DNA of 64,000 nucleotides, taken from positions 1-64,000 of the IMG/VR virus record IMGVR_UViG_3300025860_000003; one strand, given 5' to 3'. Below, piece by piece: positions 435 to 63,536 of this stretch. Position 1 is the first letter of the stretch. Every line of letters starts with the position of its first letter. The notes beneath the pieces are model-generated. The model saw only the letters and a program-made list of their open reading frames with translations, had not been told where the DNA came from and did no database searches. The stretch comes from a virus. The translations under genes were made by a program, and so were the position numbers.

Positions 435-839
435 CTATTTTCCTTTATCATTATCAGGGAGGTCGTAGTCAGGATCCGCAGGGTCTACTGGGAATGGGAT
501 ATTCTCATCAACATCCATCATCCATTGAGCATAAACCATATCATCTTCTTCGTCAATCTCTACAGCAATCATCTTATCAGCTACGTGTTGGAACATATGC
601 CCCTCGCCTCTGTTTCGATAGACTAGTGATCGTATTGCTTCGGTTATGAAAACAAAGTCACGGGCAAACGTTTGAGAGTCATCCGCAACATCAGTTTCCA
701 TCAACTCATCAAGGAGATAGTTGATCCACTTCTGAACTATCTCTTCAGTCTCACCTTGATACTCATCATATTGCTCCTGAGCTGTAGCAGGCTTTGGTTT
801 AAGTCTTGAAGTTAAATCAATTACATTACCTTTACTCAC
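435..839 (-). CDS. acidic hypothetical protein
   Basis: track ORF 435..1022; more plausible GTG start at 839 with GGAGG RBS, overlapping the stop of the upstream gene. Confidence 0.7.
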   Translation of the reverse strand: MSKGNVIDLTSRLKPKPATAQEQYDEYQGETEEIVQKWINYLLDELMETDVADDSQTFARDFVFITEAIRSLVYRNRGEGHMFQHVADKMIAVEIDEEDDMVYAQWMMDVDENIPFPVDPADPDYDLPDNDKGK

Positions 840-1428
840 CAAAGAAGTCCTCCAAGTTAGATAACCCAGCAGCAACAATCGGTTGCTCAACAGCCGCTTC
901 TTGTGTGTCACCCCAGTCAGCAGGCATACCACCCTTATCTTCAGAGACGCCCCAAACATAACCAAGGTCTGGATAAAATACACCTTGAGTGCGTTTCGGA
1001 TTGCCTTGCGCATCATATGCAAGAGTTAAACAGACTTCACCCATCCTGTTCTGTCGATCTTTACCCCAGAACATATCACACCAATCACCGCTTTCAAGAT
1101 AACGCTGCATGTTGCGGGCATAACCTTCAGCCATAATCTTCTTGGCAAGCGCACCCTTAATACCAGCACGGTCGTTCTTACCCTCAGCCGAGGCAATTTC
1201 ACGTTGATGTTTGATCCACTCTTTCACATTAGACATGTGGAGCGGATCATCAGTCGGGAGGTCAAGAACATTTTGGTGGATGTTCTTATAGGTTGGTGGG
1301 TTCTCAAGCATACGCTTTTCGCGAGCTTTAGCCAGACGCTCTACCGCAGCAGCCTTTTGCTCAGCTGACATTGGTTTGCGTGGTTTACGGATCTTTTTGC
1401 GGACGTAACTTTCAGGTTCTTTAGCCAT
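832..1428 (-). CDS. conserved T4-like phage hypothetical protein with basic N-terminus
   Basis: MAKEPESYVRKKIRKPRKPMSAEQKAAAVERLAKAREKR; GAGTGAG RBS and sigma70 promoter upstream. Confidence 0.75.
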   Translation of the reverse strand: MAKEPESYVRKKIRKPRKPMSAEQKAAAVERLAKAREKRMLENPPTYKNIHQNVLDLPTDDPLHMSNVKEWIKHQREIASAEGKNDRAGIKGALAKKIMAEGYARNMQRYLESGDWCDMFWGKDRQNRMGEVCLTLAYDAQGNPKRTQGVFYPDLGYVWGVSEDKGGMPADWGDTQEAAVEQPIVAAGLSNLEDFFGE

Positions 1429-1457
1429 AATCTTAATCTCACTCAATTTGAACAACA

Positions 1458-1486
1458 AGTATACTATAGTCTATGTAGGATGTCAA
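1458..1486 (-). promoter_or_regulatory. sigma70-type promoter
   Basis: TTGACA-17 nt-TATACT. Confidence 0.7.
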
Positions 1487-9413: not shown

Positions 9414-10094
9414 TTATTCTTGTTCTTGTAGTAATGAATTTGCCATGGGGAATATCTCAGCAATAGCGCATGCGCACTCACGAGCAATTTCCATGTGTTC
9501 TTTTTGTGTACCGTTAGCAGCACGCAGATTAATATAATGAATCCAACTTCTCAAAGTGCCATTCATATATAGTCGAGTTTTAGTAAGTCCCTCTGGGAGT
9601 ACTGCTCTCGCCTGCTCTTTCGCGATGCCCGCTTTTATTGCCCAGTCATATGCTCTCTGAGATGCAGCGATAACGGTTTTCTGAGCAGCAACCCAATCGC
9701 GCCTTAATGACTCATCATTAGTGTCAACACTGTTCTGACGGTTCTTATCATCCTGTAGTCGCGCTTCACGCAGAACATAAGGATATCCCATTTCATCAGG
9801 CGTAGCATAACGCTGGCTGAATTCTTGGAAAGAGAAAGAACGATGACGCACAATCTGATGTGCAATATCTCTTGTCGTGTCGATCATCATACACGCACTG
9901 ACCATCTCTAAAGGAGACCAATGTTGGTGTTTGATTAGATACTTTACCAACTTCTCTGAAGTCTCATTGTTGAACTGATTGGCAGGATTAGAAACCCTCG
10001 CACAGTACGCGATCATTTCTAATAAATCAGGATTCTCATTCTCACCAAATAAACCATCCACTGCTGCCGAATACGACACTAATTTTACATGCAT
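9414..10094 (-). CDS. thyX: flavin-dependent thymidylate synthase
   Basis: HWSPLE and RHRSFSFQEFSQRY ThyX motif. Confidence 0.95.
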   Translation of the reverse strand: MHVKLVSYSAAVDGLFGENENPDLLEMIAYCARVSNPANQFNNETSEKLVKYLIKHQHWSPLEMVSACMMIDTTRDIAHQIVRHRSFSFQEFSQRYATPDEMGYPYVLREARLQDDKNRQNSVDTNDESLRRDWVAAQKTVIAASQRAYDWAIKAGIAKEQARAVLPEGLTKTRLYMNGTLRSWIHYINLRAANGTQKEHMEIARECACAIAEIFPMANSLLQEQE

Positions 10095-29655: not shown

Positions 29656-29834
29656 TTGGATGTACCTCTTGTGTCTTTATATTCTGTCATCAGGAAGTCT
29701 ACATTTTGACTATACCATTCCGAGAATGGAACTTTCTCATCACCCCAATCAAACCGTTCTGCCATAGCATCAGCGTATAGCCTGTGCGCGAATGTATCAA
29801 AGTCATCTAAATTCAACGTTACTCTCCTATCCAA
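29652..29834 (-). CDS. hypothetical protein
   Basis: 60-aa ORF overlapping both neighbours, GGAG RBS. Confidence 0.6.
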   Translation of the reverse strand: MDRRVTLNLDDFDTFAHRLYADAMAERFDWGDEKVPFSEWYSQNVDFLMTEYKDTRGTSK

Positions 29835-30930
29835 AAAAACTTTCTAATGAACTCTTCTTTTCTGTGCTCCAGTTAACAGAATCAAGTATCGCAATCAGCG
29901 GATCTAGAAACGCTTTCTGGAACTGGGTATCACGGTCTATGTAGGAATCCAAGTTAAACTCGCTTGGCAGTGTAGTCATCACACTAAGTACATTTTGCTG
30001 CATCGGATTAGGCATCTTGAGATAACAAAATTTGATCTTCTCGCCATCCTTAACCAGCTCATACTTTTTGGTGAGTTTCTCAGCACGCAACGCATGGTTA
30101 TACACCAACCCACCGCGAACATGGATCGGACACCCTTTAGGGATTGTTAGACCAGCACCCTCGACGACATATTTATTTAGATCAGATATTCCACGCGGAA
30201 ACGCAATCTCCTCGAAAGAGAAGTTGTTGAACTGTTTGCGGAATTCAGCAATATAATCTTGGGCATCCTGCTCACTTTTGTTCATGATAATATTGATTGC
30301 TTTCTTCAGAGCATCACGACAAACAGCTGGAGTCGAAGACTTAACAGTCTCGATACCCATCATCTTCAGCTTTGGCTCAGCATACCGAACACCCTCATTG
30401 TCATACACATTGAGCATATAACGCTTCTTGGCAGTCCAGATACCCTTATCAGCTATCGCCTCTCGCTTCATAAACATCTTCTGCGAGTGGGCATTCATTA
30501 GCTGTGCCAGTTCCTCATAACTTTTATCAATAAAAGGTTCCAGCTTCTCAGTTGCAACCTTGTCCAAGAAATTGACAACTTTGACAGGGTCACTTCCCTC
30601 TTTAAAGCATTTGCGTACAAGTGCATCGAGATTGACATAAATTGAATCTGTGTCCGATGCAATAACATAGTCAACTTCGCTTGTATCCAAGATAGTGTTG
30701 AGGTATTCATTAACTCTCCTTTCAATCCACTTAATTGATAGCTGTCCTGATAGTGTAATAGCTTCCGCTTTCCTCACATCGAAGAAGCGGAAGTATTTAT
30801 TACCAACTGCACCATACGCTGAGTTCAGCTGAACCTTTTTCGCAAGCTGCAGGTTCTTGTACTTACTTATATCTTTGACAAGTTGCTTCTTTCGATCAAG
30901 GAGATCAGCCTTACTCATAGTATCGATCAT
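29827..30930 (-). CDS. family B DNA polymerase, C-terminal subunit (gp43B)
   Basis: KVQLNSAYG motif B, SDTDS motif C, KKRY, clamp-binding SLESFF tail. Confidence 0.93.
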   Translation of the reverse strand: MIDTMSKADLLDRKKQLVKDISKYKNLQLAKKVQLNSAYGAVGNKYFRFFDVRKAEAITLSGQLSIKWIERRVNEYLNTILDTSEVDYVIASDTDSIYVNLDALVRKCFKEGSDPVKVVNFLDKVATEKLEPFIDKSYEELAQLMNAHSQKMFMKREAIADKGIWTAKKRYMLNVYDNEGVRYAEPKLKMMGIETVKSSTPAVCRDALKKAINIIMNKSEQDAQDYIAEFRKQFNNFSFEEIAFPRGISDLNKYVVEGAGLTIPKGCPIHVRGGLVYNHALRAEKLTKKYELVKDGEKIKFCYLKMPNPMQQNVLSVMTTLPSEFNLDSYIDRDTQFQKAFLDPLIAILDSVNWSTEKKSSLESFFG

Positions 30931-31202: not shown

Positions 31203-32650
31203 AATTGTAACAACCTTTTGTTTACTAATTCAAGTTCCGCTTCGGCTTCAAGCATTTTCTTCTTGTAGCCTTTGCGCTCATTATACATCTTTTCCATCAT
31301 CTCAGGCAGAAACCCCTGCTTATCCTTTCGGAAGTAGCGACCATTACCAGCCATCGAATACTCTTCATGGGTCTCAACCTTACGATCAATTATATCCTCT
31401 ATTGACACATCAGTCAACCAATCATCTTCAACAAACGTCTCGGGAGAGATGTTGTATTGCATGATCAAGTGAGGATATAGTGAGTTCAAATCGAAACTCA
31501 TAACCCAGTTATGCATACCAACCTGCGGATCCTTAACATAAGCTCCTGCAAATTGTTCGTTCTTAAATGTCTGTTCCTTTGGAGGAATGACAATATTCTT
31601 GCTCATCAAGTAGTTGTGGATCAACGTATCCCACATTGTTACTTGAGTGAACACATCATTGTAGTTTACCTTGGCGTCATAAGCAATAGCCAGAGCACCC
31701 TCGATCAGCTTCATCTTATCTTCGAGCCTATCAACAATCTCAACATCTTTGATATTATAATCAATAAACTTTTTATAATCTTGCTTATGTAGTTGATTGA
31801 GGTTATCAAACTCGGAGTAATCAATCTTGCGCTCACCAAGCTCTACATAAGCAATGTGATCAAGTCGATAAGACTCCTGTTGCGAGTATGTAAACTTTTT
31901 GTAGAGTTGGAGATAATCCAGCGTGGCTATACCAGTCAGCTCATAGATCGTATCTTCACGATTAAAGTTCTTGATGGTACGCTCTTTGATCCAGCCATAT
32001 GGAGAGAGCCGCTTAACAAACTTATCATCAAACAGCTTACCAATACGATTCACAAGATATGGAATATCAAACCCTTCAATGTTCCAACCAGTTACGATAT
32101 CTGGATCGAGTCTCTGCCACAAAGCGACAAACGCAGATAACAAACGTTTCTCGTTGATGCAATTAACATACTTCACATCATCACGCTCACTGTCATCATA
32201 CTCGCCAACGCCCATAACATAGTATTGACGCTTGCCGTTCCTCGTCAAAGAGACGGTGATTGCAGTCACTTCTTGGTTTGCTAACTCAGGAAGCGGGAAG
32301 CCATCTTCAGAAGCAACCTCAATATCAATGTTGGCGACACGGATAGTGTCCGTATCATAATCATTACCGAACCGCTCGTTGATGCAGACATGCGCCCACT
32401 TAGTGGAACCATATGTCTTGAAGTTAGAAACACCCTCGTATTTCTGGACAAACTGTGCAGCCTCGCGGATGTCACCAAGCGCAACCTCGTCTACATAGTC
32501 GCCCTCTAGTGTTGTCCACTTAGTGGGGTTGGGTGACGGCACATACAACTTTGGGTTGTACTCAACTTTGTGGACAAAGCGTCTGCCGTCCTGATAGCCA
32601 CGGATGTTGACATTGTTGCCTCGCACATGGGCATGGGTATAAAAATACAT
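31199..32650 (-). CDS. family B DNA polymerase, N-terminal subunit (gp43A)
   Basis: DIEV exo I, GWNIEGFDIPY exo II, YNIKD exo III, SFDLNSLYP motif A; ends in the fingers helix. Confidence 0.93.
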   Translation of the reverse strand: MYFYTHAHVRGNNVNIRGYQDGRRFVHKVEYNPKLYVPSPNPTKWTTLEGDYVDEVALGDIREAAQFVQKYEGVSNFKTYGSTKWAHVCINERFGNDYDTDTIRVANIDIEVASEDGFPLPELANQEVTAITVSLTRNGKRQYYVMGVGEYDDSERDDVKYVNCINEKRLLSAFVALWQRLDPDIVTGWNIEGFDIPYLVNRIGKLFDDKFVKRLSPYGWIKERTIKNFNREDTIYELTGIATLDYLQLYKKFTYSQQESYRLDHIAYVELGERKIDYSEFDNLNQLHKQDYKKFIDYNIKDVEIVDRLEDKMKLIEGALAIAYDAKVNYNDVFTQVTMWDTLIHNYLMSKNIVIPPKEQTFKNEQFAGAYVKDPQVGMHNWVMSFDLNSLYPHLIMQYNISPETFVEDDWLTDVSIEDIIDRKVETHEEYSMAGNGRYFRKDKQGFLPEMMEKMYNERKGYKKKMLEAEAELELVNKRLLQL

Positions 32651-48301: not shown

Positions 48302-48862
48302 TTATATCACACCATAAATATCTTCAGACTCAACCCATGTCATATAACCTTGCTTATGCAAGATGTTTGTGATAAGGCTATCATCTATGTGCGCATGCTC
48401 AATCTTAACAAATGTGGGTTTAACTTTCCAGCTGTACACGCCGAGGATATTTAACTCATGCCCCTCAACGTCGATCTTCATGAAGTCAATATGACCAATC
48501 TCGTTTTCTATGAGATAAGTGTCCAGTCTACAACATGGCACTTCAATCCTATCCAACAGAAGATGGGCGTTAGCTGGGCGACTGAACATGCGCCCACCTA
48601 AATGATCCGCATCGTCCACAACACCAATCCCACGCGCCCAGTCATCGGTTTGAATGCTTTGGTTGAACGCAACTGTACCATTCTTATTCGATACAGCCAT
48701 GTTATCAACTTTGACATCATATTGGGCTGTCTTGTTAGCCATAATTTCAGCATAACGTGGATCAGCCTCAATCATATATCCAGACCAACCTGCTTCAGCG
48801 AGAGGAAGACACGTGTCAAAATCACACGTGCCTATCTCTAGGAAGACTTTCCCATTACCCAT
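48302..48862 (-). CDS. FkbM-family methyltransferase
   Basis: FLEIGT, IEAD, IDFMKIDVEGHE, IEH. Confidence 0.85.
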   Translation of the reverse strand: MGNGKVFLEIGTCDFDTCLPLAEAGWSGYMIEADPRYAEIMANKTAQYDVKVDNMAVSNKNGTVAFNQSIQTDDWARGIGVVDDADHLGGRMFSRPANAHLLLDRIEVPCCRLDTYLIENEIGHIDFMKIDVEGHELNILGVYSWKVKPTFVKIEHAHIDDSLITNILHKQGYMTWVESEDIYGVI

Positions 48863-49523
48863 TGTATTTGCTTCCAGCCTCAGTAGCAACCCAATACTCA
48901 ACAACAGAGCCGAGGAAGTGGGAGATGCCTTTAGACGATACACTAACCTTATAATCATCAGACATAAACTTCAGATTCTCGGTCTTGAAGATGAACTCAA
49001 ACTCAGCTTCAGTGTTACCAACCGACAGACCAAACTCATTAGAAGTTGGATTCTTTGTATCAGTAGCAACCAAAGAGACAGTGCCGTCCGAACCACGAAC
49101 AACAACTTCAGGCAATGACAGTTGATTCGCAGCGTTGACAACTTTCTTATAGTTGGCAGCGGTCATATCAAATTGAACTTCAGGATCAGGCAGCTCAAGA
49201 TTCTTCTCGGGTGGAGAAGTTATCATTGACGGATCAGTGTATGTGTAGCGACATTGACTACTTGGTTGTGACGCTTCACTGACGGTTAGTGACGATGAGC
49301 CGAAGTCAAAGACAGCATCCTCAAACAAACTAGTCAACCCAAGAAACTGATTCATCTCATAGATGGCAAAGTCTTGTGGGAATGATTCACTTACAACAGC
49401 AGACGCAAGGATGTTCTTCTGGGGTGATACAGTTCGTAACACGTTGCCAGTCTTAAATGATAACGATGGATTTATCGTTGAGAAGTTCTTTAAAACTTCA
49501 AAGGTGCTTTCACTAATTTTCAT
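48855..49523 (-). CDS. sliding clamp (gp45-like)
   Basis: LKNFSTINPS, FAIYEMNQFL, ENLK, YWVATE. Confidence 0.92.
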   Translation of the reverse strand: MKISESTFEVLKNFSTINPSLSFKTGNVLRTVSPQKNILASAVVSESFPQDFAIYEMNQFLGLTSLFEDAVFDFGSSSLTVSEASQPSSQCRYTYTDPSMITSPPEKNLELPDPEVQFDMTAANYKKVVNAANQLSLPEVVVRGSDGTVSLVATDTKNPTSNEFGLSVGNTEAEFEFIFKTENLKFMSDDYKVSVSSKGISHFLGSVVEYWVATEAGSKYNG

Positions 49524-55344: not shown

Positions 55345-55899
55345 TCAACTGGCTATTGATTTCTCAATAAAGTCAATAATTTGTTGTGTATCTTCAGGGA
55401 CATTGTGAGCAAAGGTATGGACACATCCAGCTTCACCCATCAATATTTTCTCCCCAAACATATCTTCAATGTTAGCAACCTTAGTCACCCGTCCATTGAT
55501 AAACGTCTCAGACTGATCAGAACCTCTGTCCGCATAACGCTGTTGGCGTACTGCGTCATCTGTTTTCAGAACTATGATTGATAGATCATGTCCCGCTCTC
55601 TTCACAGCCTCGAAAAATTTAGAAGAAGTAAGCCGATCACCCTCGAACACAACGACAGGTGATGGCTCATTCCCCATATACTCTACTGCCATTGGCTGTA
55701 CTGCCATTGACAACTTATCAGTTCCCGCAAAGACTTCACCGTCTTCATACTTACCAAACAAGCGGATGTCGCCTGAAACATAACCATCAAGCAACTTAAC
55801 AGGAGTGTCTTTAGTCCATTCCCGCTTTGCCATCCACTGCCGCATGAGCGTTGTTTTGCCAGTTCCTGGAATACCAATGATACCAATCACTTTACTCAC
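55345..55899 (-). CDS. P-loop kinase, putative hydroxymethyl-pyrimidine DNA kinase
   Basis: GIPGTGKTT, GTDKLSM, FEGDRL; gene context. Confidence 0.75.
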   Translation of the reverse strand: MSKVIGIIGIPGTGKTTLMRQWMAKREWTKDTPVKLLDGYVSGDIRLFGKYEDGEVFAGTDKLSMAVQPMAVEYMGNEPSPVVVFEGDRLTSSKFFEAVKRAGHDLSIIVLKTDDAVRQQRYADRGSDQSETFINGRVTKVANIEDMFGEKILMGEAGCVHTFAHNVPEDTQQIIDFIEKSIAS

Positions 55900-57281
55900 G
55901 AGAAGAAACCCTCTAATGATGTTTGCGATTCAGCTTCTGGATGATATTGATTCAGCATATCAACTCCACCTTTATCTTTAAGGTAATCAAACCACTCATC
56001 TTCAGCCCACATACTTGGCGAAACGCCATTCCAAAAACTTTTCCATAGCTTATGATCTTTGTTTAATCTACGATCATCAACATACTGCTTTCGGAGAGAT
56101 TCATATTCCCACGAGCCAACATCAAGCATTTTCTCACGGAAGTAGCATACAAGCGAGATACGCTCCATGTCTTCAATAGAAGTTCCAGCAGGTGGCTTCA
56201 GCTCAGTGTTGCCGTGTATGCCGCCATGGTTGTTGATCAATAACAGATCTCCAGGACGGATGTTAATGCCAACACGAAACTCTGGAAGAACAAGATAACC
56301 ACCCTCCCAATTCTTTGCTTTAGCAACAACAGTTAGATTAGAGAAACCTTCATTCAAGTCGCCAGCATCTCGGTGACATGCGGTGCGGAAGTTCTTATTC
56401 ACAGTAACTGTAGTGAACGGAGTATCTTCGCCCGCAACACGGAAGCGTGGATCTAGTTTAGCGGCAGCTTCATTCTGAATACCATATCGAATAGGCAAGT
56501 GTTCTTTAAACTTAGCGGACAACTGACGCATGAAAGGATAGCACTTCTCATATACGCTGTAGTTGTTCTCAGTGTACGCAGTCGCTCGACCATATGGGAT
56601 GCGAGGATAGCGATCAAAGAAACCAGCAATACCTGACAACACCATGTTAGCATATGTTGTCTCAGAGATATAGTTCTTCTGTGTTGCCTTTGCGTCTTTC
56701 TGAGAATCTTCGGCAGACATACCTTTCCACTCTTCAACCTTATCACTGAAGAACGATTCATAGTTGTAGCCATTGTCGGTAATCTTAGAACGGATCCAGA
56801 CAATACCACGTGACTCACTCTCAGCAGCCACAGCGTGTCTAGCTTTGATTCTTTCTACTGGATCAGTGTCGTCCTCAAACAAAGTAACTTCACGTTCAGC
56901 AAAGTGCTTCATAATGTCTAACTGTTCTTCAGTAACCCAATCACGACCGCCTTGCTTTGCTCCTTTTGGACCAGCAGCTAGACCACGATTCTGTGTGGGT
57001 AATGCCGCACCAAGTAATCCCTCATATGCGCCATGTTGTTGTTCTTCAGTGAATACGTTTTTACGAAACTTGAAGATAATGTTGTCTTCGTTATTCTCTC
57101 CACCAAAGCCAGCAGGAGCATAGAAGTCAGTGTTCTCCTCACAGATAAAGTCCCAGTCAGTATCTTCCATATACTTGCCGAGTTTGTCTTCGCAATTATC
57201 CCAAAATTTAGCGGTAACAGTTCTGACTCCAGTTCTGTTATCTACACTCACATCATATCTTTCGTTTATCACGCCAATCAT
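55896..57281 (-). CDS. TET/JBP-family 2OG-Fe(II) dioxygenase
   Basis: FTTVTVNKNFRTACHRDAGD (HxD), GGYLVLPE, GDLLL, HGNT, RISLVCYFR. Confidence 0.82.
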   Translation of the reverse strand: MIGVINERYDVSVDNRTGVRTVTAKFWDNCEDKLGKYMEDTDWDFICEENTDFYAPAGFGGENNEDNIIFKFRKNVFTEEQQHGAYEGLLGAALPTQNRGLAAGPKGAKQGGRDWVTEEQLDIMKHFAEREVTLFEDDTDPVERIKARHAVAAESESRGIVWIRSKITDNGYNYESFFSDKVEEWKGMSAEDSQKDAKATQKNYISETTYANMVLSGIAGFFDRYPRIPYGRATAYTENNYSVYEKCYPFMRQLSAKFKEHLPIRYGIQNEAAAKLDPRFRVAGEDTPFTTVTVNKNFRTACHRDAGDLNEGFSNLTVVAKAKNWEGGYLVLPEFRVGINIRPGDLLLINNHGGIHGNTELKPPAGTSIEDMERISLVCYFREKMLDVGSWEYESLRKQYVDDRRLNKDHKLWKSFWNGVSPSMWAEDEWFDYLKDKGGVDMLNQYHPEAESQTSLEGFFS

Positions 57282-58288
57282 ATCATAAATCTCTCTAGAC
57301 CGATATCGGTCATCTCATTTGTAAATGTATTCATATGGTCAATTTTCCCAGTATCTAGGAAGAGTTCCATTTTACCCTTATTCACTGAATTTGTCAAGTA
57401 TTCATTTCGTAGTGTTTCTTTCCTAGCATCCCACATAGGAGTCCAGTCTATACCAACCCACTCATCGCACTCGACTTTCTTTATTTCCTCAGCCTGTCTA
57501 TCTATATAATATCCGAGATAGCGTCCTCTGCTCTTGCGGAATAACTTCTTGAATGAGCACAGCGCAGTTTCCATAGCAAAGAAGTCAGCCTTGTGAGCCG
57601 AGTCAGGAAACGCAGTCTTGACCTCAGCCAACATATCCGCACCCTCATCTTCCATCCACTGTATTTGATCAGCAGTCAACTTAGTGCTCACCCAGTCATC
57701 TTTACCCAGAGCATAACATAAACCGTTGCGGTGGGATTTAGATCCTGAGTAGTCATGTAACCATAGGTTTGGAACATCAACATTCAAGTCAGCACACTGC
57801 TTCAGAGTCTGTATATAGAACCAAGAAGTGTAACGACCAAACTTATGTAGAGAGTTGACAGCTTCCCACACATTAGCAAAGTTCTCATATTTATCACCAT
57901 TACATAACTCGGCAAACGCTTGAGCTTGAGTTCTATCACCAACCCATGCTTTGTATGATTCAAACTGATCCGCTAGATGACCTTTGTTCCACTTAGTGTC
58001 AGTCTGATAACGTAGTCTTGAATAGTTTTCGTTGTTCCATTCTCTCAGACGATCTACACCAACCAGCTCCATATCAGGAAACTCATTCCAGATAAGATAT
58101 GCTGTAGGGAAGTTGTATGTCGTACCATATAACCAACACAACCAAAGGCGCTGCTCTATATTATACTCAAACCGATCAAAGAAATAGTTTGTGATGTATA
58201 GCGCAGAGTCACAATCTTCTATCTCAAGACCCCACCCAAACCAATTGATGAATGCTTGCTTACGATGTTCACTTAGTCGATAATCCAT
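57278..58288 (-). CDS. aGPT-Pplase family amino-acid/amine:DNA transferase (HhH-glycosylase-like fold)
   Basis: QRLWLCWLYG, FGRYTSWFY HhH-like turn, ETALCSFKK, YLGYYIDR; context with kinase. Confidence 0.7.
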   Translation of the reverse strand: MDYRLSEHRKQAFINWFGWGLEIEDCDSALYITNYFFDRFEYNIEQRLWLCWLYGTTYNFPTAYLIWNEFPDMELVGVDRLREWNNENYSRLRYQTDTKWNKGHLADQFESYKAWVGDRTQAQAFAELCNGDKYENFANVWEAVNSLHKFGRYTSWFYIQTLKQCADLNVDVPNLWLHDYSGSKSHRNGLCYALGKDDWVSTKLTADQIQWMEDEGADMLAEVKTAFPDSAHKADFFAMETALCSFKKLFRKSRGRYLGYYIDRQAEEIKKVECDEWVGIDWTPMWDARKETLRNEYLTNSVNKGKMELFLDTGKIDHMNTFTNEMTDIGLERFMI

Positions 58289-58941
58289 TAAAAGAAACCC
58301 TCTAGAGTATTTGGCTCATCACCTATCAATTTATCACGCATCCAATATTCGCCTACAGCAGCAATTGCTTCTTCTACAGTAGCGGTCTTTTTCTTACCAA
58401 AGCCATGTGATTCAAGCGACTCATTTGTAAGCTGCTTCACAACCTTAGCGTCAGTGGGTGTGGCTAGATGAGGCATCTTAATTGCGGTAGCTCTGAACAT
58501 CCGTTGTTCTCTCGCAGAGGCAAATAGTGGCTGGTCAGATCGTAACGAGCCTGTCGGATCAACTGCCCAGAATACTAGACCATTTCTCTTATGCCAAGTA
58601 ACTGATGATGGAGTACATGACAACTTCAATCGAGTCATACCATTATCGCAAGCATCAGCCATAACCTGTTCCCAGATAATTGTAGCGTAACCTTTACCCT
58701 CTTGCCCTTGGCGAGTTACGATCTCATATAGATTGATGTATCGTGATCTCTGACTATATGTAGCGAATACAAAGGCAACCAACTCACCATCCACTTCCAA
58801 AGCAAACGGCGGATTCTTATCATAGTTCTTGAATCGAAACCAAAGGCTGTGTGAAGAGTTGAGAAACTTAGTGTTTCTACCCTCTGGGGAGTCCTCTATG
58901 ACTGCCTCCACCATCTCTTGTGTACAACGTACTAACTGCAT
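58288..58941 (-). CDS. GNAT acetyltransferase
   Basis: LYEIVTRQGQEGKGYA acetyl-CoA binding motif A. Confidence 0.75.
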   Translation of the reverse strand: MQLVRCTQEMVEAVIEDSPEGRNTKFLNSSHSLWFRFKNYDKNPPFALEVDGELVAFVFATYSQRSRYINLYEIVTRQGQEGKGYATIIWEQVMADACDNGMTRLKLSCTPSSVTWHKRNGLVFWAVDPTGSLRSDQPLFASAREQRMFRATAIKMPHLATPTDAKVVKQLTNESLESHGFGKKKTATVEEAIAAVGEYWMRDKLIGDEPNTLEGFF

Positions 58942-59624
58942 TGTAGATCCCTCACTAAAGCGCCGCCACGTATTTTTTTTCCGACACTTAGCTCACCATT
59001 GTAAATATAAGACTGGTACATACCGCATTGTGTTGTATCGCCGCAGCCGCTTCGATTCAGGATATCTTTGGTTGACGCAAACACTACACCATTGCTTCTG
59101 GCACTATACCATAATGGTCTTGCTTCGTTTCTAAACGCAGATAATGTTTTGTCTTTGGTGATACTACAAACTGCCATACTAGCAGGAGAGAAGTCATTGA
59201 GTGGATGTCTATTGGCTTCAAAGGACTTCAATATGAGCTCACTATCATTTGCTGTCTCGGTGTCATACTTCCATTGGCTCATATCTTCTTGCGAGATAAC
59301 GCCGTTATGGACTATGCTTTGATTGCCGTTAGAGAATGGTTGGTTGTAACGCAAGTCAGAAGTGGAGTAGCGGATATGACCAATAAGGTATATTCCACCA
59401 TCCTCATTGACCATACTGCTGATGGGGTATCTCTCTAGAAATTGGTCGCAAGGAATCCCTTCCTTAATGGTGTGAATTTCGCCATTCTTGATATAAGAGA
59501 CTCCAGTCGCATGCTTGCCTCTTATCATTGACTGTTGGAAGACATTCTCGACTAGACGGATATTCTCCAAAGAGTCGCGACTCACTGTCGACCTTTCCAA
59601 CCATACACCTATCACACCACACAT
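58932..59624 (-). CDS. stand-alone class II glutamine amidotransferase (Ntn hydrolase)
   Basis: MCGVIG (Cys2), RGKHATG, GHIRYST, NQP, HNG, NDSE, RPL. Confidence 0.88.
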   Translation of the reverse strand: MCGVIGVWLERSTVSRDSLENIRLVENVFQQSMIRGKHATGVSYIKNGEIHTIKEGIPCDQFLERYPISSMVNEDGGIYLIGHIRYSTSDLRYNQPFSNGNQSIVHNGVISQEDMSQWKYDTETANDSELILKSFEANRHPLNDFSPASMAVCSITKDKTLSAFRNEARPLWYSARSNGVVFASTKDILNRSGCGDTTQCGMYQSYIYNGELSVGKKIRGGALVRDLQCS

Positions 59625-59653
59625 AATATACCCTGAATTAGTTGATTTCAGTT

Positions 59654-59682
59654 ATTATACACTACTTCACCAGATTAATCAA
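59654..59682 (-). promoter_or_regulatory. sigma70-type promoter for the modification operon
   Basis: TTGATT-17 nt-TATAAT. Confidence 0.65.
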
Positions 59683-61917: not shown

Positions 61918-62976
61918 TTACTCTATTGTGAGGGATTCATTATATAACGAACGGAGCAAAGAGTCAAGCCTTTCTTTGGGTACGTTGTCAGATAAGCCTC
62001 CGACATACTTGGAGAGTATCGTCATAGTGTCCTCAGCCTCATTCACTATATCCTCATCGTCCTCTAGATTCAGGTTCATATGATCATCTACGATCTGGAT
62101 ATTGAGCGGATCAGACTTATACAGCTTGTCAATGAATAGATCAAACCAGTATGGATTGTCACACTTCTGTTTAATCACCTTGACATAGGTGTTCTTGAAC
62201 CCGTCAAAGTCTACATCAAGAAGATCTTCCATCGTCTTGCCGTCTTCATTATAGAACACTTTATGGAACATAGAGTATGGATTGCGTACAAACTCAAGCT
62301 CTCGCTTATCAGTATCGTAGATATGGAAGCCTTTAGTATCGCCATAATCAGCCCATGTAAGCTCATAGGGACAGCCGAGATACTCGATATTGTTTGTAGT
62401 TGACTTATGGTGGAAGTGACCAGAACATACAAGCTCAAACTTAGAGAAGTCCGCAATCTTCATACCATGCTCGTTCATGTTACCGCGATCCATCAGACAG
62501 CCAGCAATCTCTAGGTGACCAAACAACACTTGAGCTGGGGTGTCTTTCATAGACTGAATCGCAGCGGCATAGTTTTGATTGTTTATCCAAGGCATGATAT
62601 GAATGTCATGACCATCAAACTTCAGGTCAGTAGGCTCTGAGTAATAGTTCACATTAGACTTATCAAACAGCTCCCGCATGGAGTTCACATCATTAGTGTT
62701 TTTATATGGAACGTCATGATTGCCGACTATAACGTGTAACTCAATACCCTCTTCAGTACACTTATCAATGAACATCTCCTTCATTCTACGGAGAGTTACA
62801 TAGTTGATATACTTGCGTCGATCGACAATATCACCCAGATGGATGATTGTATCAATACCCTGCTCCTTCAGGTGAGGAAAGAAGTGTTTGCTGTAAAACT
62901 TCTCAAAGTAGTCTAAGAAGTTTACGCTGTCATTACGAATACCGAAGTGTGTGTCGGTTACTAATCCAATTTTCAT
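61918..62976 (-). CDS. recombination endonuclease nuclease subunit (gp47, Mre11-like)
   Basis: DTHFG, LGD, GNHD, GHFH phosphoesterase motifs. Confidence 0.95.
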   Translation of the reverse strand: MKIGLVTDTHFGIRNDSVNFLDYFEKFYSKHFFPHLKEQGIDTIIHLGDIVDRRKYINYVTLRRMKEMFIDKCTEEGIELHVIVGNHDVPYKNTNDVNSMRELFDKSNVNYYSEPTDLKFDGHDIHIMPWINNQNYAAAIQSMKDTPAQVLFGHLEIAGCLMDRGNMNEHGMKIADFSKFELVCSGHFHHKSTTNNIEYLGCPYELTWADYGDTKGFHIYDTDKRELEFVRNPYSMFHKVFYNEDGKTMEDLLDVDFDGFKNTYVKVIKQKCDNPYWFDLFIDKLYKSDPLNIQIVDDHMNLNLEDDEDIVNEAEDTMTILSKYVGGLSDNVPKERLDSLLRSLYNESLTIE

Positions 62977-63536
62977 TGCTGAAGTTTGCCCTCTTCCGTT
63001 TCTTTCTTCTTCTTGATCTTTCTTCGCTTATTTTCTTCGAAGTCCTCAACAAACCTCGCCATGTAGTCTTCAGTCCACTCGCCATACTTAACGTTGTCAT
63101 TGTAGTCATTACCAGAATCATGACCTTGAGTGTCCGCAGTATCACCCAACACATTAGTGTGCTCAGAGAACTTAATCTTCACATACAGGTTCTTTTTCTC
63201 TTTCTGTATTCTACGGAGGAACGCATAGTAGATGATCTGTGTGAAATACGCAAATGGGTTGTTCGACTTCTCAGGGTTGAAGTTGTCAATATATTGTAGG
63301 CAGTTCTCGATACCATCACAGACCATCTCATCTCGAAAGGTGTAGTTGATGAAGTTTGGTTTGTATGATAGGTGAGTCGCTATCTTCATAATGCAGTCAG
63401 CAATATAGTTCGAGACGATAGGTCTTGGTGCACCACTTTCCTTTGCGTCTATGACGCTCTGACGGAACTCAGTCATAGCCCCCAAGAACTTCTTGTTATC
63501 AACATAGTATGGCTTCTTCTTTGCTGCTTTTGACAT
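62973..63536 (-). CDS. late sigma factor (gp55-like)
   Basis: YVDNKKFL, NFINYT, DGIENC, NPFAYFTQIIYYAFLRRIQKEK. Confidence 0.93.
   Translation of the reverse strand: MSKAAKKKPYYVDNKKFLGAMTEFRQSVIDAKESGAPRPIVSNYIADCIMKIATHLSYKPNFINYTFRDEMVCDGIENCLQYIDNFNPEKSNNPFAYFTQIIYYAFLRRIQKEKKNLYVKIKFSEHTNVLGDTADTQGHDSGNDYNDNVKYGEWTEDYMARFVEDFEENKRRKIKKKKETEEGKLQQ

What the first reader, a model, noticed from the sequence alone, without database searches (positions are those of the whole stretch)
55345..59682. Five-gene post-replicative DNA hypermodification operon: GATase + GNAT + aGPT-Pplase + TET/JBP + P-loop kinase
Seen: five overlapping or abutting genes behind one sigma70 promoter, with the motifs of a class II glutamine amidotransferase, a GNAT, an aGPT-Pplase-like transferase, a TET/JBP dioxygenase and a P-loop kinase. 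Established: characterised thymine-hypermodifying phages (phiW-14, SP10, ViI, M6, PaMx11) incorporate 5hmdU made by a dUMP hydroxymethylase, phosphorylate it with a P-loop DNA kinase and displace the phosphate with an amine via aGPT-Pplase; PaMx11 reaches 5-acetylaminomethyl-U through glycine, a flavin enzyme and an acetyltransferase. TET/JBP genes next to such enzymes have been predicted computationally. Inference: this phage makes ordinary dTMP (ThyX, 9414-10094; no dUMP hydroxymethylase in the window), so 5hmU would be made on the DNA by TET/JBP, phosphorylated, aminated with glutamine-derived ammonia (or Gln transferred then trimmed by the Ntn hydrolase) and N-acetylated: T to 5hmU to 5-PmU to 5-aminomethyl-U to 5-acetamidomethyl-U. 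I know of no experimental characterisation of this route. A 5mC-based variant is possible if a C5 methyltransferase lies elsewhere in the genome.
Basis: partly seen in the sequence, partly recalled or inferred. Interest (0 to 1): 0.92.

Follow-up and report, generated by a model that had tools for sequence, protein, structure and literature searches.

The report
Clamp-tethered thymine hypermodification operon in phage
A T4-like marine phage carries five linked genes that most likely turn thymine in its finished DNA into a bulky amine-bearing base, a gene set already described in print, and several of these enzymes end in the same short tail as the phage's DNA polymerase, which suggests they ride on the replication clamp.

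Summary
Five overlapping minus-strand genes at 55345-59624 encode a class II glutamine amidotransferase, a GNAT, an amino-acid:DNA transferase (AADT, formerly aGPT-Pplase), a TET/JBP dioxygenase and a P-loop kinase. The AADT keeps the catalytic Glu-Thr..Cys.

The 133-kb record and 15 related records hold no C5-methyltransferase, no ThyA-family hydroxymethylase and no ParB. ThyX is present. Thymine is therefore the likely substrate.

All five genes co-occur in 12 of 42 related loci. In 21 of the 42, the same dioxygenase sits beside a TET-associated glycosyltransferase instead.

The route T to 5hmU to 5-PmU to an amine adduct is well supported. It is not new: Lee 2021 and O'Toole 2026 describe this gene association, and phage T-dioxygenase activity has been shown. 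Glutamine-derived amination followed by N-acetylation remains inference.

One feature was not found in print. TET, AADT, GNAT and the alternative glycosyltransferases end in a conserved [ST]LExFF tail like the phage polymerase's own tail. This suggests gp45-clamp tethering in place of ParB. The complex prediction gave weak support only.

An earlier scan note on this same genome had already flagged the tail.

The parts
59654..59682 (-). sigma70-like promoter candidate TTGATT-17-TATAAT upstream of the GATase start
   Evidence: 10 of 12 matches; sequence. The number of such sites in the region is not above shuffles, so function is not shown.
58932..59624 (-). stand-alone class II (Ntn) glutamine amidotransferase, 230 aa, with N-terminal Met-Cys and an invariant C-terminal DLQ
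   Evidence: PF13522 1.7e-9. phrog_4736 1.4e-21. Ortholog profile against PDB: PurF 6lbp_A 4e-8. C2, R35, G36, R85, T88, N107, G108 and D127 are invariant in 11 orthologs.
58288..58941 (-). GNAT acyltransferase, 217 aa, with a C-terminal helical extension and the tail ..NTLEGFF
   Evidence: PF00583 2.8e-7. Model pLDDT 67.4. Foldseek hits are RimI, Ard1 and spermidine acetyltransferases at 5.6e-5 to 1e-4. Tail present in 12 of 12 orthologs.
57278..58288 (-). amino-acid:DNA transferase (AADT, clade 2 aGPT-Pplase), 336 aa, tail ..GLERFMI
   Evidence: PF18724 8.7e-24. E240-T241..C244 align with PaMx11 gp46 E243-T244..C247. Tail present in 18 of 20 orthologs.
55896..57281 (-). TET/JBP 5-methylpyrimidine dioxygenase, 461 aa, with extended N-terminal half, a C-terminal helical extension and the tail ..TSLEGFFS
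   Evidence: PF12851 3.1e-24. Model pLDDT 75.1. Foldseek: CcTet 2.2e-8, TET2 3.9e-8, NgTET1 1.4e-7. H303, D305, H352 and H356 are invariant in 20 orthologs. Tail present in 36 of 44 orthologs.
55345..55899 (-). P-loop kinase, 184 aa, candidate 5-hmdU DNA kinase
   Evidence: PF18751 3.2e-17. phrog_800 5.4e-15. BLASTP against M6 gp54 aligns only the P-loop. It follows TET in 21 of 42 related loci.
48855..49523 (-). gp45 sliding clamp, proposed docking platform for the tailed enzymes
   Evidence: PF09116 7.8e-20. ORF. Complex prediction with TET 421-461 gave weak support.
29827..30930 (-). C-terminal part of the split gp43 DNA polymerase, ending ..SSLESFFG; the reference tail
   Evidence: phrog_262 1.8e-149. 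PF00136. Tail. Polymerase tails in related records: SLESFFA, SLEDFFG, TLDDYF.
9447..10031 (-). ThyX flavin-dependent thymidylate synthase (makes ordinary dTMP)
   Evidence: PF02511 1.2e-43

Best explanation
This is an early-expressed operon for post-replicative thymine hypermodification in a T4-like marine phage.

Proposed steps:
1. The phage makes normal dTMP with ThyX and incorporates T into its DNA.
2. The TET/JBP dioxygenase oxidises T in DNA to 5-hydroxymethyluracil. This step is inferred from the family and from the lack of any C5-methyltransferase or dUMP hydroxymethylase.
3. The P-loop kinase phosphorylates the hydroxymethyl group, giving 5-PmdU. This is inferred by analogy with the M6, ViI and PaMx11 kinases.
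4. The AADT attacks C6 with Cys244, expels phosphate and adds a nitrogen nucleophile at the exocyclic methylene. The catalytic residues are shown to be conserved; the nucleophile is inferred.
5. The stand-alone GATase keeps every glutamine-binding residue and always accompanies this AADT clade. The nucleophile is therefore most likely ammonia from glutamine (or, equivalently, a gamma-glutamyl adduct trimmed by the same enzyme), giving 5-aminomethyl-dU.
6. The GNAT then N-acylates it, most simply to 5-acetamidomethyl-dU. That is the base of PaMx11, reached here by another route.

TET, AADT and GNAT each end in a short acidic-hydrophobic tail like that of the phage's own DNA polymerase. They are therefore probably recruited to freshly replicated DNA by the gp45 sliding clamp. 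In this ParB-less group the clamp would take the place that a ParB-like activator holds in other phage T-dioxygenase systems.
For: - Family assignments are all above Pfam cut-offs.
- The TET fold matches CcTet, TET2 and NgTET1, and the HxD and downstream His are invariant.
- The AADT E-T-x-x-C aligns with PaMx11 gp46 E243/T244/C247 and M6 gp51. The roles of these residues come from PMC11472151 section 14 and PMC8989533 passages.
- ThyX is present.
- PF00303, PF00145 and PF02195 give no match in the own record or in any of 15 related records, one of them 89% complete.
- Co-occurrence in the 42 related loci: AADT+kinase with TET in 21, GATase also in 17 (the other 4 are cut off upstream), all five genes in 12.
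- In the other 21 of 42 loci the orthologous TET sits beside a TET-associated glycosyltransferase (PF20691), with or without sugar-nucleotide enzymes. This fits TET making a hydroxymethyl acceptor. The module type needs 6 changes on the TET tree, at least 4 of them forced by supported branches, among 32 distinct sequences.
- GATase: C2, R35-G36, R85..T88, N107-G108 and D127 are invariant, and the closest solved relatives are PurF glutaminase domains.
- Tail: 6 of 178 own-genome ORFs match, against 0.77 +/- 0.86 in shuffles (the highest of 1000 shuffles was also 6). Three of the six are operon genes and one is the polymerase.
- The tail is kept in TET 36/44, AADT 18/20, GNAT 12/12 and TAGT 12/12. 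It is absent from GATase 0/16, PDF 0/10, HSP20 0/12 and the other non-tailed families counted.
- Polymerases of related records carry the same motif.
- Non-T4-like phages have short TETs without the tail, and HTVC112P has a ParB-like gene next to its TET.
- The acidic-hydrophobic C-termini of gp43, gp55 and gp33 are the known gp45-binding epitopes (PMC2988020, passages).
- Complex prediction of three gp45 copies with TET 421-461: weak support, score 0.48 against a best control of 0.02. The mark was reached by 58 of 80 solved complexes and 2 of 110 mismatches. At 0.60 or under it was reached by only 7 of those 80 and by both passing mismatches. The runs agree in at least 46% of contacts and the partner pLDDT is at least 39. 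A clamp-peptide complex has been solved for RB69, so the pass may reflect likeness.
Against: - No chemistry was measured. The substrate base, the nucleophile and the acyl donor are all inferred.
- The kinase is PF18751, not PF18748 or PF18747 as in the characterised 5-hmdU DNA kinases, and BLASTP against M6 gp54 aligns only the P-loop.
- The glycine-binding Trp146/Lys150 of PaMx11 gp46 are Tyr153/Phe157 here. This shows a different donor, but does not show that the donor is ammonia.
- Stand-alone phage GATases also occur beside amidoligases in unrelated contexts, and five related loci add an amidoligase-like gene and other genes. The end product may therefore be more complex.
- The AADT clade profile found no solved structure at E <= 1, and hhalign to PaMx11 gp46 alone was insignificant. 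Homology rests on the Pfam and PHROG profiles.
- The kinase, which must act on DNA, lacks a clear tail (1 of 21), so the tail is not a universal mark of DNA-acting enzymes.
- The record is 74% complete, so a methyltransferase or ParB could lie in the missing part.
- ParB-less clade C1 enzymes were reported inactive on T and 5mC in E. coli (PMC13229309 section 5).
- For T4 itself, binding of the glucosyltransferase to gp45 was recently not reproduced (bioRxiv 10.64898/2025.12.06.692756, passages).
Confidence: 0.7

Rival explanations
1. The pathway is the same up to 5-PmdU, but the AADT adds a whole amino acid or amine (for example glutamine, glutamate, serine or a polyamine). The GATase and GNAT then tailor that side chain, so the final base is not 5-acetamidomethyl-U.
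For: - Every characterised AADT transfers an amino acid or putrescine (PMC8989533, Table 1 passage).
- Five related loci add an amidoligase-like gene, a different GNAT and a 433-439 aa unknown.
- Phage stand-alone GATases often sit beside amidoligases.
Against: - The GATase keeps the Asp and Arg that, by recall of the GlmS and PurF structures, bind the free alpha-amino and alpha-carboxylate of glutamine. An N-alpha-linked glutamine would therefore not fit.
- The glycine-binding Trp/Lys of PaMx11 gp46 are replaced by Tyr/Phe.
- There is no PLP, radical-SAM or flavin tailoring gene in the operon.
Confidence: 0.25
2. The dioxygenase acts on 5-methylcytosine, and the operon builds a cytosine hypermodification.
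For: - Phage TETs of clades A and B oxidise 5mC, and kinases next to such TETs have been suggested to phosphorylate 5hmC (PMC8256090, passages).
- The record is only 74% complete.
Against: - There is no PF00145 match in the own record or in any of 15 related records, one of them 89% complete.
- Published work finds that phage 5mYOXs without a neighbouring C5-methyltransferase are T-dioxygenases (PMC13229309, sections 5 and 12).
Confidence: 0.04
3. The shared C-terminal tail is not a clamp-binding epitope. It would be a motif for mutual assembly of the modification enzymes, or for another partner, and its likeness to the polymerase tail is coincidental.
For: - The complex prediction gave only weak support.
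- The kinase and GATase lack the tail.
- The ORF in the gp55 position (62973-63536) ends without it. That ORF's identity was not tested.
Against: - The same motif closes the polymerase in the own record and in five related records.
- It is kept across four unrelated enzyme folds while the linker before it varies.
- It is absent from TETs of phages without a gp45-type clamp.
Confidence: 0.3

Closest known systems
ParB-associated clade C1 phage T-dioxygenase (5mYOX) gene clusters (O'Toole et al., PNAS 2026, PMC13229309)
   Same: A TET/JBP dioxygenase without a neighbouring C5-methyltransferase, linked to a GATase, a P-loop kinase and an AADT. The dioxygenase has a C-terminal extension beyond the core.
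   Different: - No ParB_N gene in the own record or in 15 related records.
- The dioxygenase is 461 aa. By comparison, the paper's last residue conserved across both subclasses is C280 of 5mYOX176.
- The C-terminal extension ends in a polymerase-like tail.
PaMx11 5-acetylaminomethyl-dU pathway (gp46 AADT, gp47 flavin lyase, gp48 acetyltransferase, gp49 kinase; PMC8989533, PMC11472151)
   Same: A kinase, an AADT with the Glu-Thr..Cys active site and a GNAT acetyltransferase. The predicted end product is the same.
   Different: - 5hmU comes from a DNA dioxygenase here, not from a dUMP hydroxymethylase.
- There is no flavin enzyme, and a GATase is present instead.
- The glycine-binding W146/K150 are Y153/F157.
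- The two GNATs are barely alike (BLASTP E 0.004 over 56 residues).
TET + TET-associated glycosyltransferase clusters of phages (PMC8256090; Pfam PF20691)
   Same: The orthologous dioxygenase (61-66% identity) sits beside TAGT, with or without an epimerase or UDP-galactopyranose mutase, in 21 of 42 related loci at the same genome position.
   Different: The window carries the kinase/AADT/GATase/GNAT module and has no TAGT.
gp45-binding C-terminal epitopes of T4 gp43, gp55 and gp33 (PMC2988020)
   Same: A short acidic-hydrophobic motif at the extreme C-terminus, behind a variable linker, matching the phage's own polymerase tail.
   Different: Here it is carried by DNA base-modifying enzymes. 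Binding has not been shown. The proposed gp45 binding by T4 alpha-glucosyltransferase is contested (bioRxiv 10.64898/2025.12.06.692756).

Membership tests
TET/JBP (5mYOX) dioxygenase | Match to Pfam PF12851 above the gathering score | tested here: met
   85.5 bits against a cut-off of 34.9; 88 bits in the genome search
TET/JBP (5mYOX) dioxygenase | HxD...H iron ligands and a 2OG-binding Arg (motif recalled) | tested here: met
   H303, D305, H352, H356, R374 and R382 are invariant in 20 orthologs. Which His and which Arg act as ligands was not resolved.
TET/JBP (5mYOX) dioxygenase | TET-type double-stranded beta-helix fold | tested here: met
   Foldseek: CcTet 2.2e-8, TET2 3.9e-8, NgTET1 1.4e-7 (TM 0.50 on the target, rmsd 3.9). 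Model pLDDT 75.1.
TET/JBP (5mYOX) dioxygenase | Oxidises T (rather than 5mC) in DNA | not testable with these tools
   Context only: no C5-methyltransferase in 16 records
ParB-dependent clade C1 5mYOX system | A co-located ParB-like activator gene | tested here: not met
   PF02195 is absent from the own record and from 15 related records. The control phage HTVC112P does have one next to its TET.
ParB-dependent clade C1 5mYOX system | Linked GATase, P-loop kinase and AADT | tested here: met
ParB-dependent clade C1 5mYOX system | Placement in clade C1 by phylogeny with the published sequences | not testable with these tools
Amino-acid:DNA transferase (clade 2 aGPT-Pplase) | Match to PF18724 above the cut-off | tested here: met
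   85 bits against 26.2. M6 gp51 and ViI gp247 match the same family.
Amino-acid:DNA transferase (clade 2 aGPT-Pplase) | Essential Cys with a nearby Glu | tested here: met
   E240, T241 and C244 are invariant in 13 orthologs and align with PaMx11 gp46 E243/T244/C247
Amino-acid:DNA transferase (clade 2 aGPT-Pplase) | Glycine-binding Trp146/Lys150 of PaMx11 gp46 | tested here: not met
   These positions are Y153 and F157. This argues against glycine as the donor, not against family membership.
Amino-acid:DNA transferase (clade 2 aGPT-Pplase) | [quoted passage not shown] | not tested
PDB sequence and profile searches found nothing at E <= 1.
5-hmdU DNA kinase | P-loop kinase encoded beside an AADT | tested here: met
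   The Walker A stretch GIPGTGKT is in the translation and aligns with the P-loop of M6 gp54. The kinase is adjacent to TET and AADT in 21 of 42 loci.
5-hmdU DNA kinase | Membership of the Pfam families of characterised enzymes (PF18748, PF18747) | tested here: not met
   The window kinase matches PF18751 instead. M6 gp54 is PF18748 and ViI gp243 is PF18747.
Class II (Ntn) glutamine amidotransferase | N-terminal catalytic Cys and glutamine-binding residues (numbering recalled from GlmS and PurF) | tested here: met
   C2, R35-G36, R85..T88, N107-G108 and D127 are invariant. The profile hits PurF at 4e-8.
Class II (Ntn) glutamine amidotransferase | A fused or identified acceptor (synthase) domain | tested here: not met
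   The protein is a stand-alone 230 aa, and Pfam matches cover residues 79-189 only. The acceptor partner is presumed to be the AADT.
GNAT acetyltransferase | PF00583 match and GNAT fold | tested here: met
   31.3 bits against 20.7. Foldseek matches GNATs at 5.6e-5. The model is of moderate quality (pLDDT 67.4).
gp45 clamp-binding C-terminal epitope | An acidic-hydrophobic motif at the extreme C-terminus that matches the phage's own polymerase tail | tested here: met
gp45 clamp-binding C-terminal epitope | Physical binding to the clamp | tested here: inconclusive
   The complex prediction gave weak support: 0.48 against a best control of 0.02

The most novel reading that the evidence does not exclude
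In T4-like phages the replicative sliding clamp gp45 serves as the toolbelt for DNA hypermodification. The T-dioxygenase, the AADT, the DNA acetyltransferase and the alternative glycosyltransferases all dock on it through polymerase-type C-terminal tails, so modification follows the replication fork. The clamp would fill the role that a ParB-like CTPase clamp plays for ParB-dependent phage T-dioxygenases. This could also explain why ParB-less clade C1 enzymes looked inactive when expressed alone in E. coli. In addition, the AADT of this clade would work with a stand-alone glutaminase as a glutamine-dependent DNA aminase, a new way to make 5-aminomethyl-dU.
Probability: 0.4. Interest if true: 0.8.

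Novelty: new variant of a known kind. Interest (0 to 1): 0.62.

Why it matters
Post-replicative thymine hypermodification shields phage DNA from restriction enzymes and other nucleases, and its enzymes are used as sequencing and labelling tools.

The gene set itself is already known from metavirome surveys. Three points are added here, and each can be tested directly:
1. This group has no ParB. Its DNA-acting enzymes instead carry the polymerase's clamp-binding tail. That gives a concrete hypothesis for how a dioxygenase is activated and targeted to new DNA, and a reason why such enzymes failed when assayed alone.
2. The glutaminase-AADT pairing predicts a new glutamine-dependent amination of DNA.
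3. One conserved dioxygenase is combined with amine or sugar modules that were exchanged several times at a fixed genome position. This is a natural experiment in modular DNA chemistry.

Tried and rejected
- Megablast of the operon against 50,697 phage records found nothing.
- NCBIfam gave only sub-threshold purF and asnB hits for the GATase, and nothing for the GNAT, AADT or TET.
- phmmer of the GATase and the AADT against PDB chains found nothing. The AADT clade profile also found nothing at E <= 1.
- hhalign of that profile against PaMx11 gp46 alone was insignificant (probability 0.3%). The link to solved AADTs therefore rests on Pfam PF18724 and the MAFFT alignment.
- phmmer of the GNAT against PDB gave only E 0.39 or worse.
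- The Atlas look-up of TET residues 1-205 scored under 0.8. I read this region as the N-terminal part of an extended TET domain, not as a separate known domain, but this is not shown.
- A 5mC-based reading was considered and rejected, because no C5-methyltransferase is found in 16 records.
- A hidden ParB fused to the N-terminus of TET was considered and rejected: there is no PF02195 signal, and Foldseek hits span the TET enzymes.
- BLASTP of the window kinase against M6 gp54 aligned only the P-loop.
They list the contigs and neighbourhoods studied and may include this very contig or close relatives.
- The statement that a clamp-binding tail on these enzymes is not in print rests on searches and on a term search inside PMC13229309 only.

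Full report
**What is there.**
Five ORFs run head to tail on the minus strand from 59624 to 55345, with overlaps of 10, 1, 4 and 4 nt. Pfam places them, each above its curated cut-off, as:
- a class II glutamine amidotransferase (PF13522, 1.7e-9)
- a GNAT (PF00583, 2.8e-7)
- an amino-acid:DNA transferase (PF18724 ADDT, 8.7e-24; formerly aGPT-Pplase)
- a TET/JBP dioxygenase (PF12851, 3.1e-24, residues 236-383 of 461)
- a P-loop kinase (PF18751, 3.2e-17)

PHROGs agree. A sigma70-like site (TTGATT-17-TATAAT) lies in the 37-nt gap region upstream of the first gene. Such sites are no more frequent in this region than in shuffles.

The flanking genes are a peptide deformylase homolog and gp46/gp47 on one side, and Hsp20 and a CobT-like protein on the other. 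The window belongs to a 133,055-bp viral record estimated at 74% complete. That record has T4-type replication genes, including a gp45 clamp and a split gp43 polymerase.

**Which base is modified.**
The record encodes ThyX. It has no ThyA-family enzyme, which is the family of dUMP and dCMP hydroxymethylases, and no C5-cytosine methyltransferase. The same two families are absent from all 15 related records searched, the largest of which is 89% complete.

The dioxygenase is thus the only visible source of a 5-hydroxymethylpyrimidine, and thymine is the only 5-methylpyrimidine the phage is seen to make. The model of the enzyme (pLDDT 75.1) matches CcTet, TET2 and NgTET1. The HxD motif and the later His residues are invariant in 20 orthologs.

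**The downstream enzymes.**
- *AADT.* It aligns with M6 gp51, ViI gp247 and PaMx11 gp46. E240-T241-x-x-C244 falls on PaMx11 E243-T244-x-x-C247. These are the residues reported as metal- or base-contacting and catalytic (PMC11472151 section 14; PMC8989533 passages). The two residues that hold glycine in PaMx11 gp46 (Trp146, Lys150) are Tyr153 and Phe157 here, and both are conserved across the clade (Tyr153 invariant, Phe157 nearly so). The donor is therefore not glycine.
- *GATase.* It is a stand-alone 230-aa protein beginning Met-Cys. The residues that, by recall of GlmS and PurF, form the oxyanion hole and bind the alpha-amino and alpha-carboxylate groups of glutamine are invariant in 11 orthologs. 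Its closest solved relatives are PurF glutaminase domains.
- *GNAT.* It has a GNAT fold. The stretch RQGQEGKG fits the acetyl-CoA loop motif, which I recall rather than tested.
- *Kinase.* It belongs to PF18751, a sister of the families that hold the characterised 5-hmdU DNA kinases (PF18748 for M6 gp54, PF18747 for ViI gp243). BLASTP against M6 gp54 aligns only the P-loop.

**Relatives.**
A scan of viral contigs with the dioxygenase returned 42 loci at 61-100% identity.
- In 21 loci the dioxygenase is followed by the kinase and preceded by the AADT.
- In 17 of those 21 the GATase is also present. The other four contigs end before it could appear.
- 12 loci carry all five genes.
- 5 loci replace the GNAT with another GNAT plus an amidoligase-like protein (PF12224, E 0.023, below cut-off) and a 433-439-aa unknown.
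- In the other 21 loci the orthologous dioxygenase is mostly accompanied by a TET-associated glycosyltransferase (PF20691) and, in various loci, an NAD-dependent epimerase, UDP-galactopyranose mutase, UDP-glucose dehydrogenase or a small APS-kinase-like protein.

On a maximum-likelihood tree of the 32 distinct dioxygenase sequences (identical copies dropped from 44), the amine-or-sugar label needs 6 changes. At least 4 of these are forced by well-supported branches. The downstream module has therefore been exchanged repeatedly around a conserved dioxygenase.

**Mechanism proposed.**
The proposed route is T in DNA to 5hmU (TET), then to 5-PmdU (kinase), then to a C5-aminomethyl adduct (AADT), then to an N-acylated base (GNAT).

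The GATase accompanies this AADT clade wherever enough upstream sequence is available, keeps a full glutamine site and has no acceptor domain of its own. The simplest reading is that it supplies ammonia to the AADT. A chemically equivalent alternative is that it trims a gamma-glutamyl adduct. Either way the product is 5-aminomethyl-dU, which the GNAT would acetylate.

That end product matches the PaMx11 base. The route differs: PaMx11 uses a dUMP hydroxymethylase, glycine and a flavin lyase (PMC8989533). These last two steps are inference, and I put the specific product at about one in three.

**The tails.**
An earlier scan note (e1-6168900) flagged a shared tail, and I tested it.
- The C-terminal polymerase fragment ends ..SSLESFFG. 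TET ends ..TSLEGFFS, the GNAT ..NTLEGFF and the AADT ..GLERFMI.
- Only 6 of 178 ORFs in the record match a loose pattern, against 0.77 +/- 0.86 in tail shuffles (maximum 6 in 1000).
- Across relatives the tail is present in 36 of 44 TETs, 18 of 20 AADTs, 12 of 12 GNATs and 12 of 12 glycosyltransferases.
- It is present in 0 of 16 GATases, 1 of 21 kinases, and in none of the PDF, Hsp20, gp46, CobT, epimerase, mutase and other accessory families counted.
- Polymerases in five related records end in the same motif.
- Of 509 other ORFs in the loci, 12 match. They include polymerase ends, a small Cys-rich protein just upstream of TET, and weak HNH-like proteins after the kinase.
- TETs of two non-T4-like phages are about 290-300 aa and lack both the extension and the tail. 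One of them, Pelagibacter phage HTVC112P, has a ParB-like gene immediately upstream.

The acidic-hydrophobic C-termini of T4 gp43, gp55 and gp33 are the established gp45-binding epitopes (PMC2988020, passages).

A complex prediction of three gp45 copies with TET residues 421-461 gave weak support:
- The score was 0.48, against 0.02 for the best of three controls.
- The mark was reached by 58 of 80 solved complexes and 2 of 110 mismatches. At 0.60 or below it was reached by only 7 of those 80 and by both passing mismatches.
- The runs agree in at least 46% of contacts, and the partner pLDDT is at least 39.
- A clamp-peptide complex is solved for RB69, so the pass may only reflect likeness.

**Comparison with print.**
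- Lee et al. (PMC8989533, section 21) report metavirome contigs in which a TET_JBP gene replaces the dUMP hydroxymethylase next to thymidine-hypermodifying genes, and note unassigned amidotransferase genes.
- Burke et al. (PMC8256090, passages) note kinases, aG/PT-PPlases, glycosyltransferases and epimerases beside phage TETs.
- O'Toole et al. (PMC13229309; abstract and sections 5, 11, 12, 13) show phage T-dioxygenase activity. They define ParB-dependent and ParB-independent subclasses and state that the ParB-associated clade C1 is linked with GATases, P-loop kinases and AADTs. They also report that some ParB-less C1 members were inactive when tested.

The operon type is therefore known. This group differs in three ways: it lacks ParB, its dioxygenase is much longer, and the enzymes carry polymerase-like tails. 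I found no mention of a replicative-clamp tail in that paper or in three literature searches. The supplements were not available.

For T4 itself, an older proposal that alpha-glucosyltransferase binds gp45 was recently not reproduced. That work used C-terminally tagged enzymes (bioRxiv 10.64898/2025.12.06.692756, passages).

**Verdict.**
The general interpretation is supported, but it is not new. The specific chemistry is plausible and untested. The clamp-tether reading is a new, testable variant of a known kind of system.

Noticed in passing
window 29827-30930 (-) and 31217-31624 (-): The gp43 DNA polymerase appears split into two ORFs. The open frame around the N-terminal match is 485 aa, and the C-terminal ORF is 367 aa. 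Four related records have a single 809-811-aa polymerase ORF, while the closest relative also has the short C-terminal ORF.
   Followed up: partly
window 48302-48958 (-): An FkbM-family methyltransferase ORF (PF05050, 5.4e-18) overlaps the 3' end of the gp45 clamp gene. An FkbM methyltransferase also sits directly after the TET gene of Pelagibacter phage HTVC112P. A role in DNA or sugar modification was not examined.
   Followed up: no
window 832-1458 (-): A 208-aa ORF with no Pfam or PHROG family ends ..GLSNLEDFFGE, the same polymerase-like tail. It may be another clamp-binding protein of unknown function.
   Followed up: partly
window 58932-59624 (-), and orthologs in L009-L035: The stand-alone GATase ends in an invariant Asp-Leu-Gln, kept in 11 of 11 aligned orthologs while the 20 residues before it vary. 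This may be a docking motif for a partner, perhaps the AADT. It was not tested.
   Followed up: no
L020:6675-7013, L027:5270-5608, L044:6678-7007, L045:6678-7007: A 109-112-aa protein directly upstream of TET in some relatives carries the same tail (..GSLEEFMV). It has no family above cut-off.
   Followed up: partly
L032:8932-9597, L033:3965-4630, L034:8005-8676: A 221-223-aa protein after the kinase has weak HNH matches (E 0.002-0.003, below cut-off) and also ends in the tail (..NTLE[EK]FFV). It is possibly a clamp-tethered nuclease linked to the modification island.
   Followed up: partly
L012:5842-7016 and L015:6525-6998: In the glycosyltransferase-type loci, TET is preceded by a UDP-glucose dehydrogenase-like protein and a small APS-kinase-like P-loop protein. 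This suggests a modified or charged sugar on the base.
   Followed up: no
window 62973-63536 (-): The 187-aa ORF in the position where T4-like phages carry gene 55 ends in a basic stretch, not in the acidic-hydrophobic clamp epitope. Its identity was not tested.
   Followed up: no
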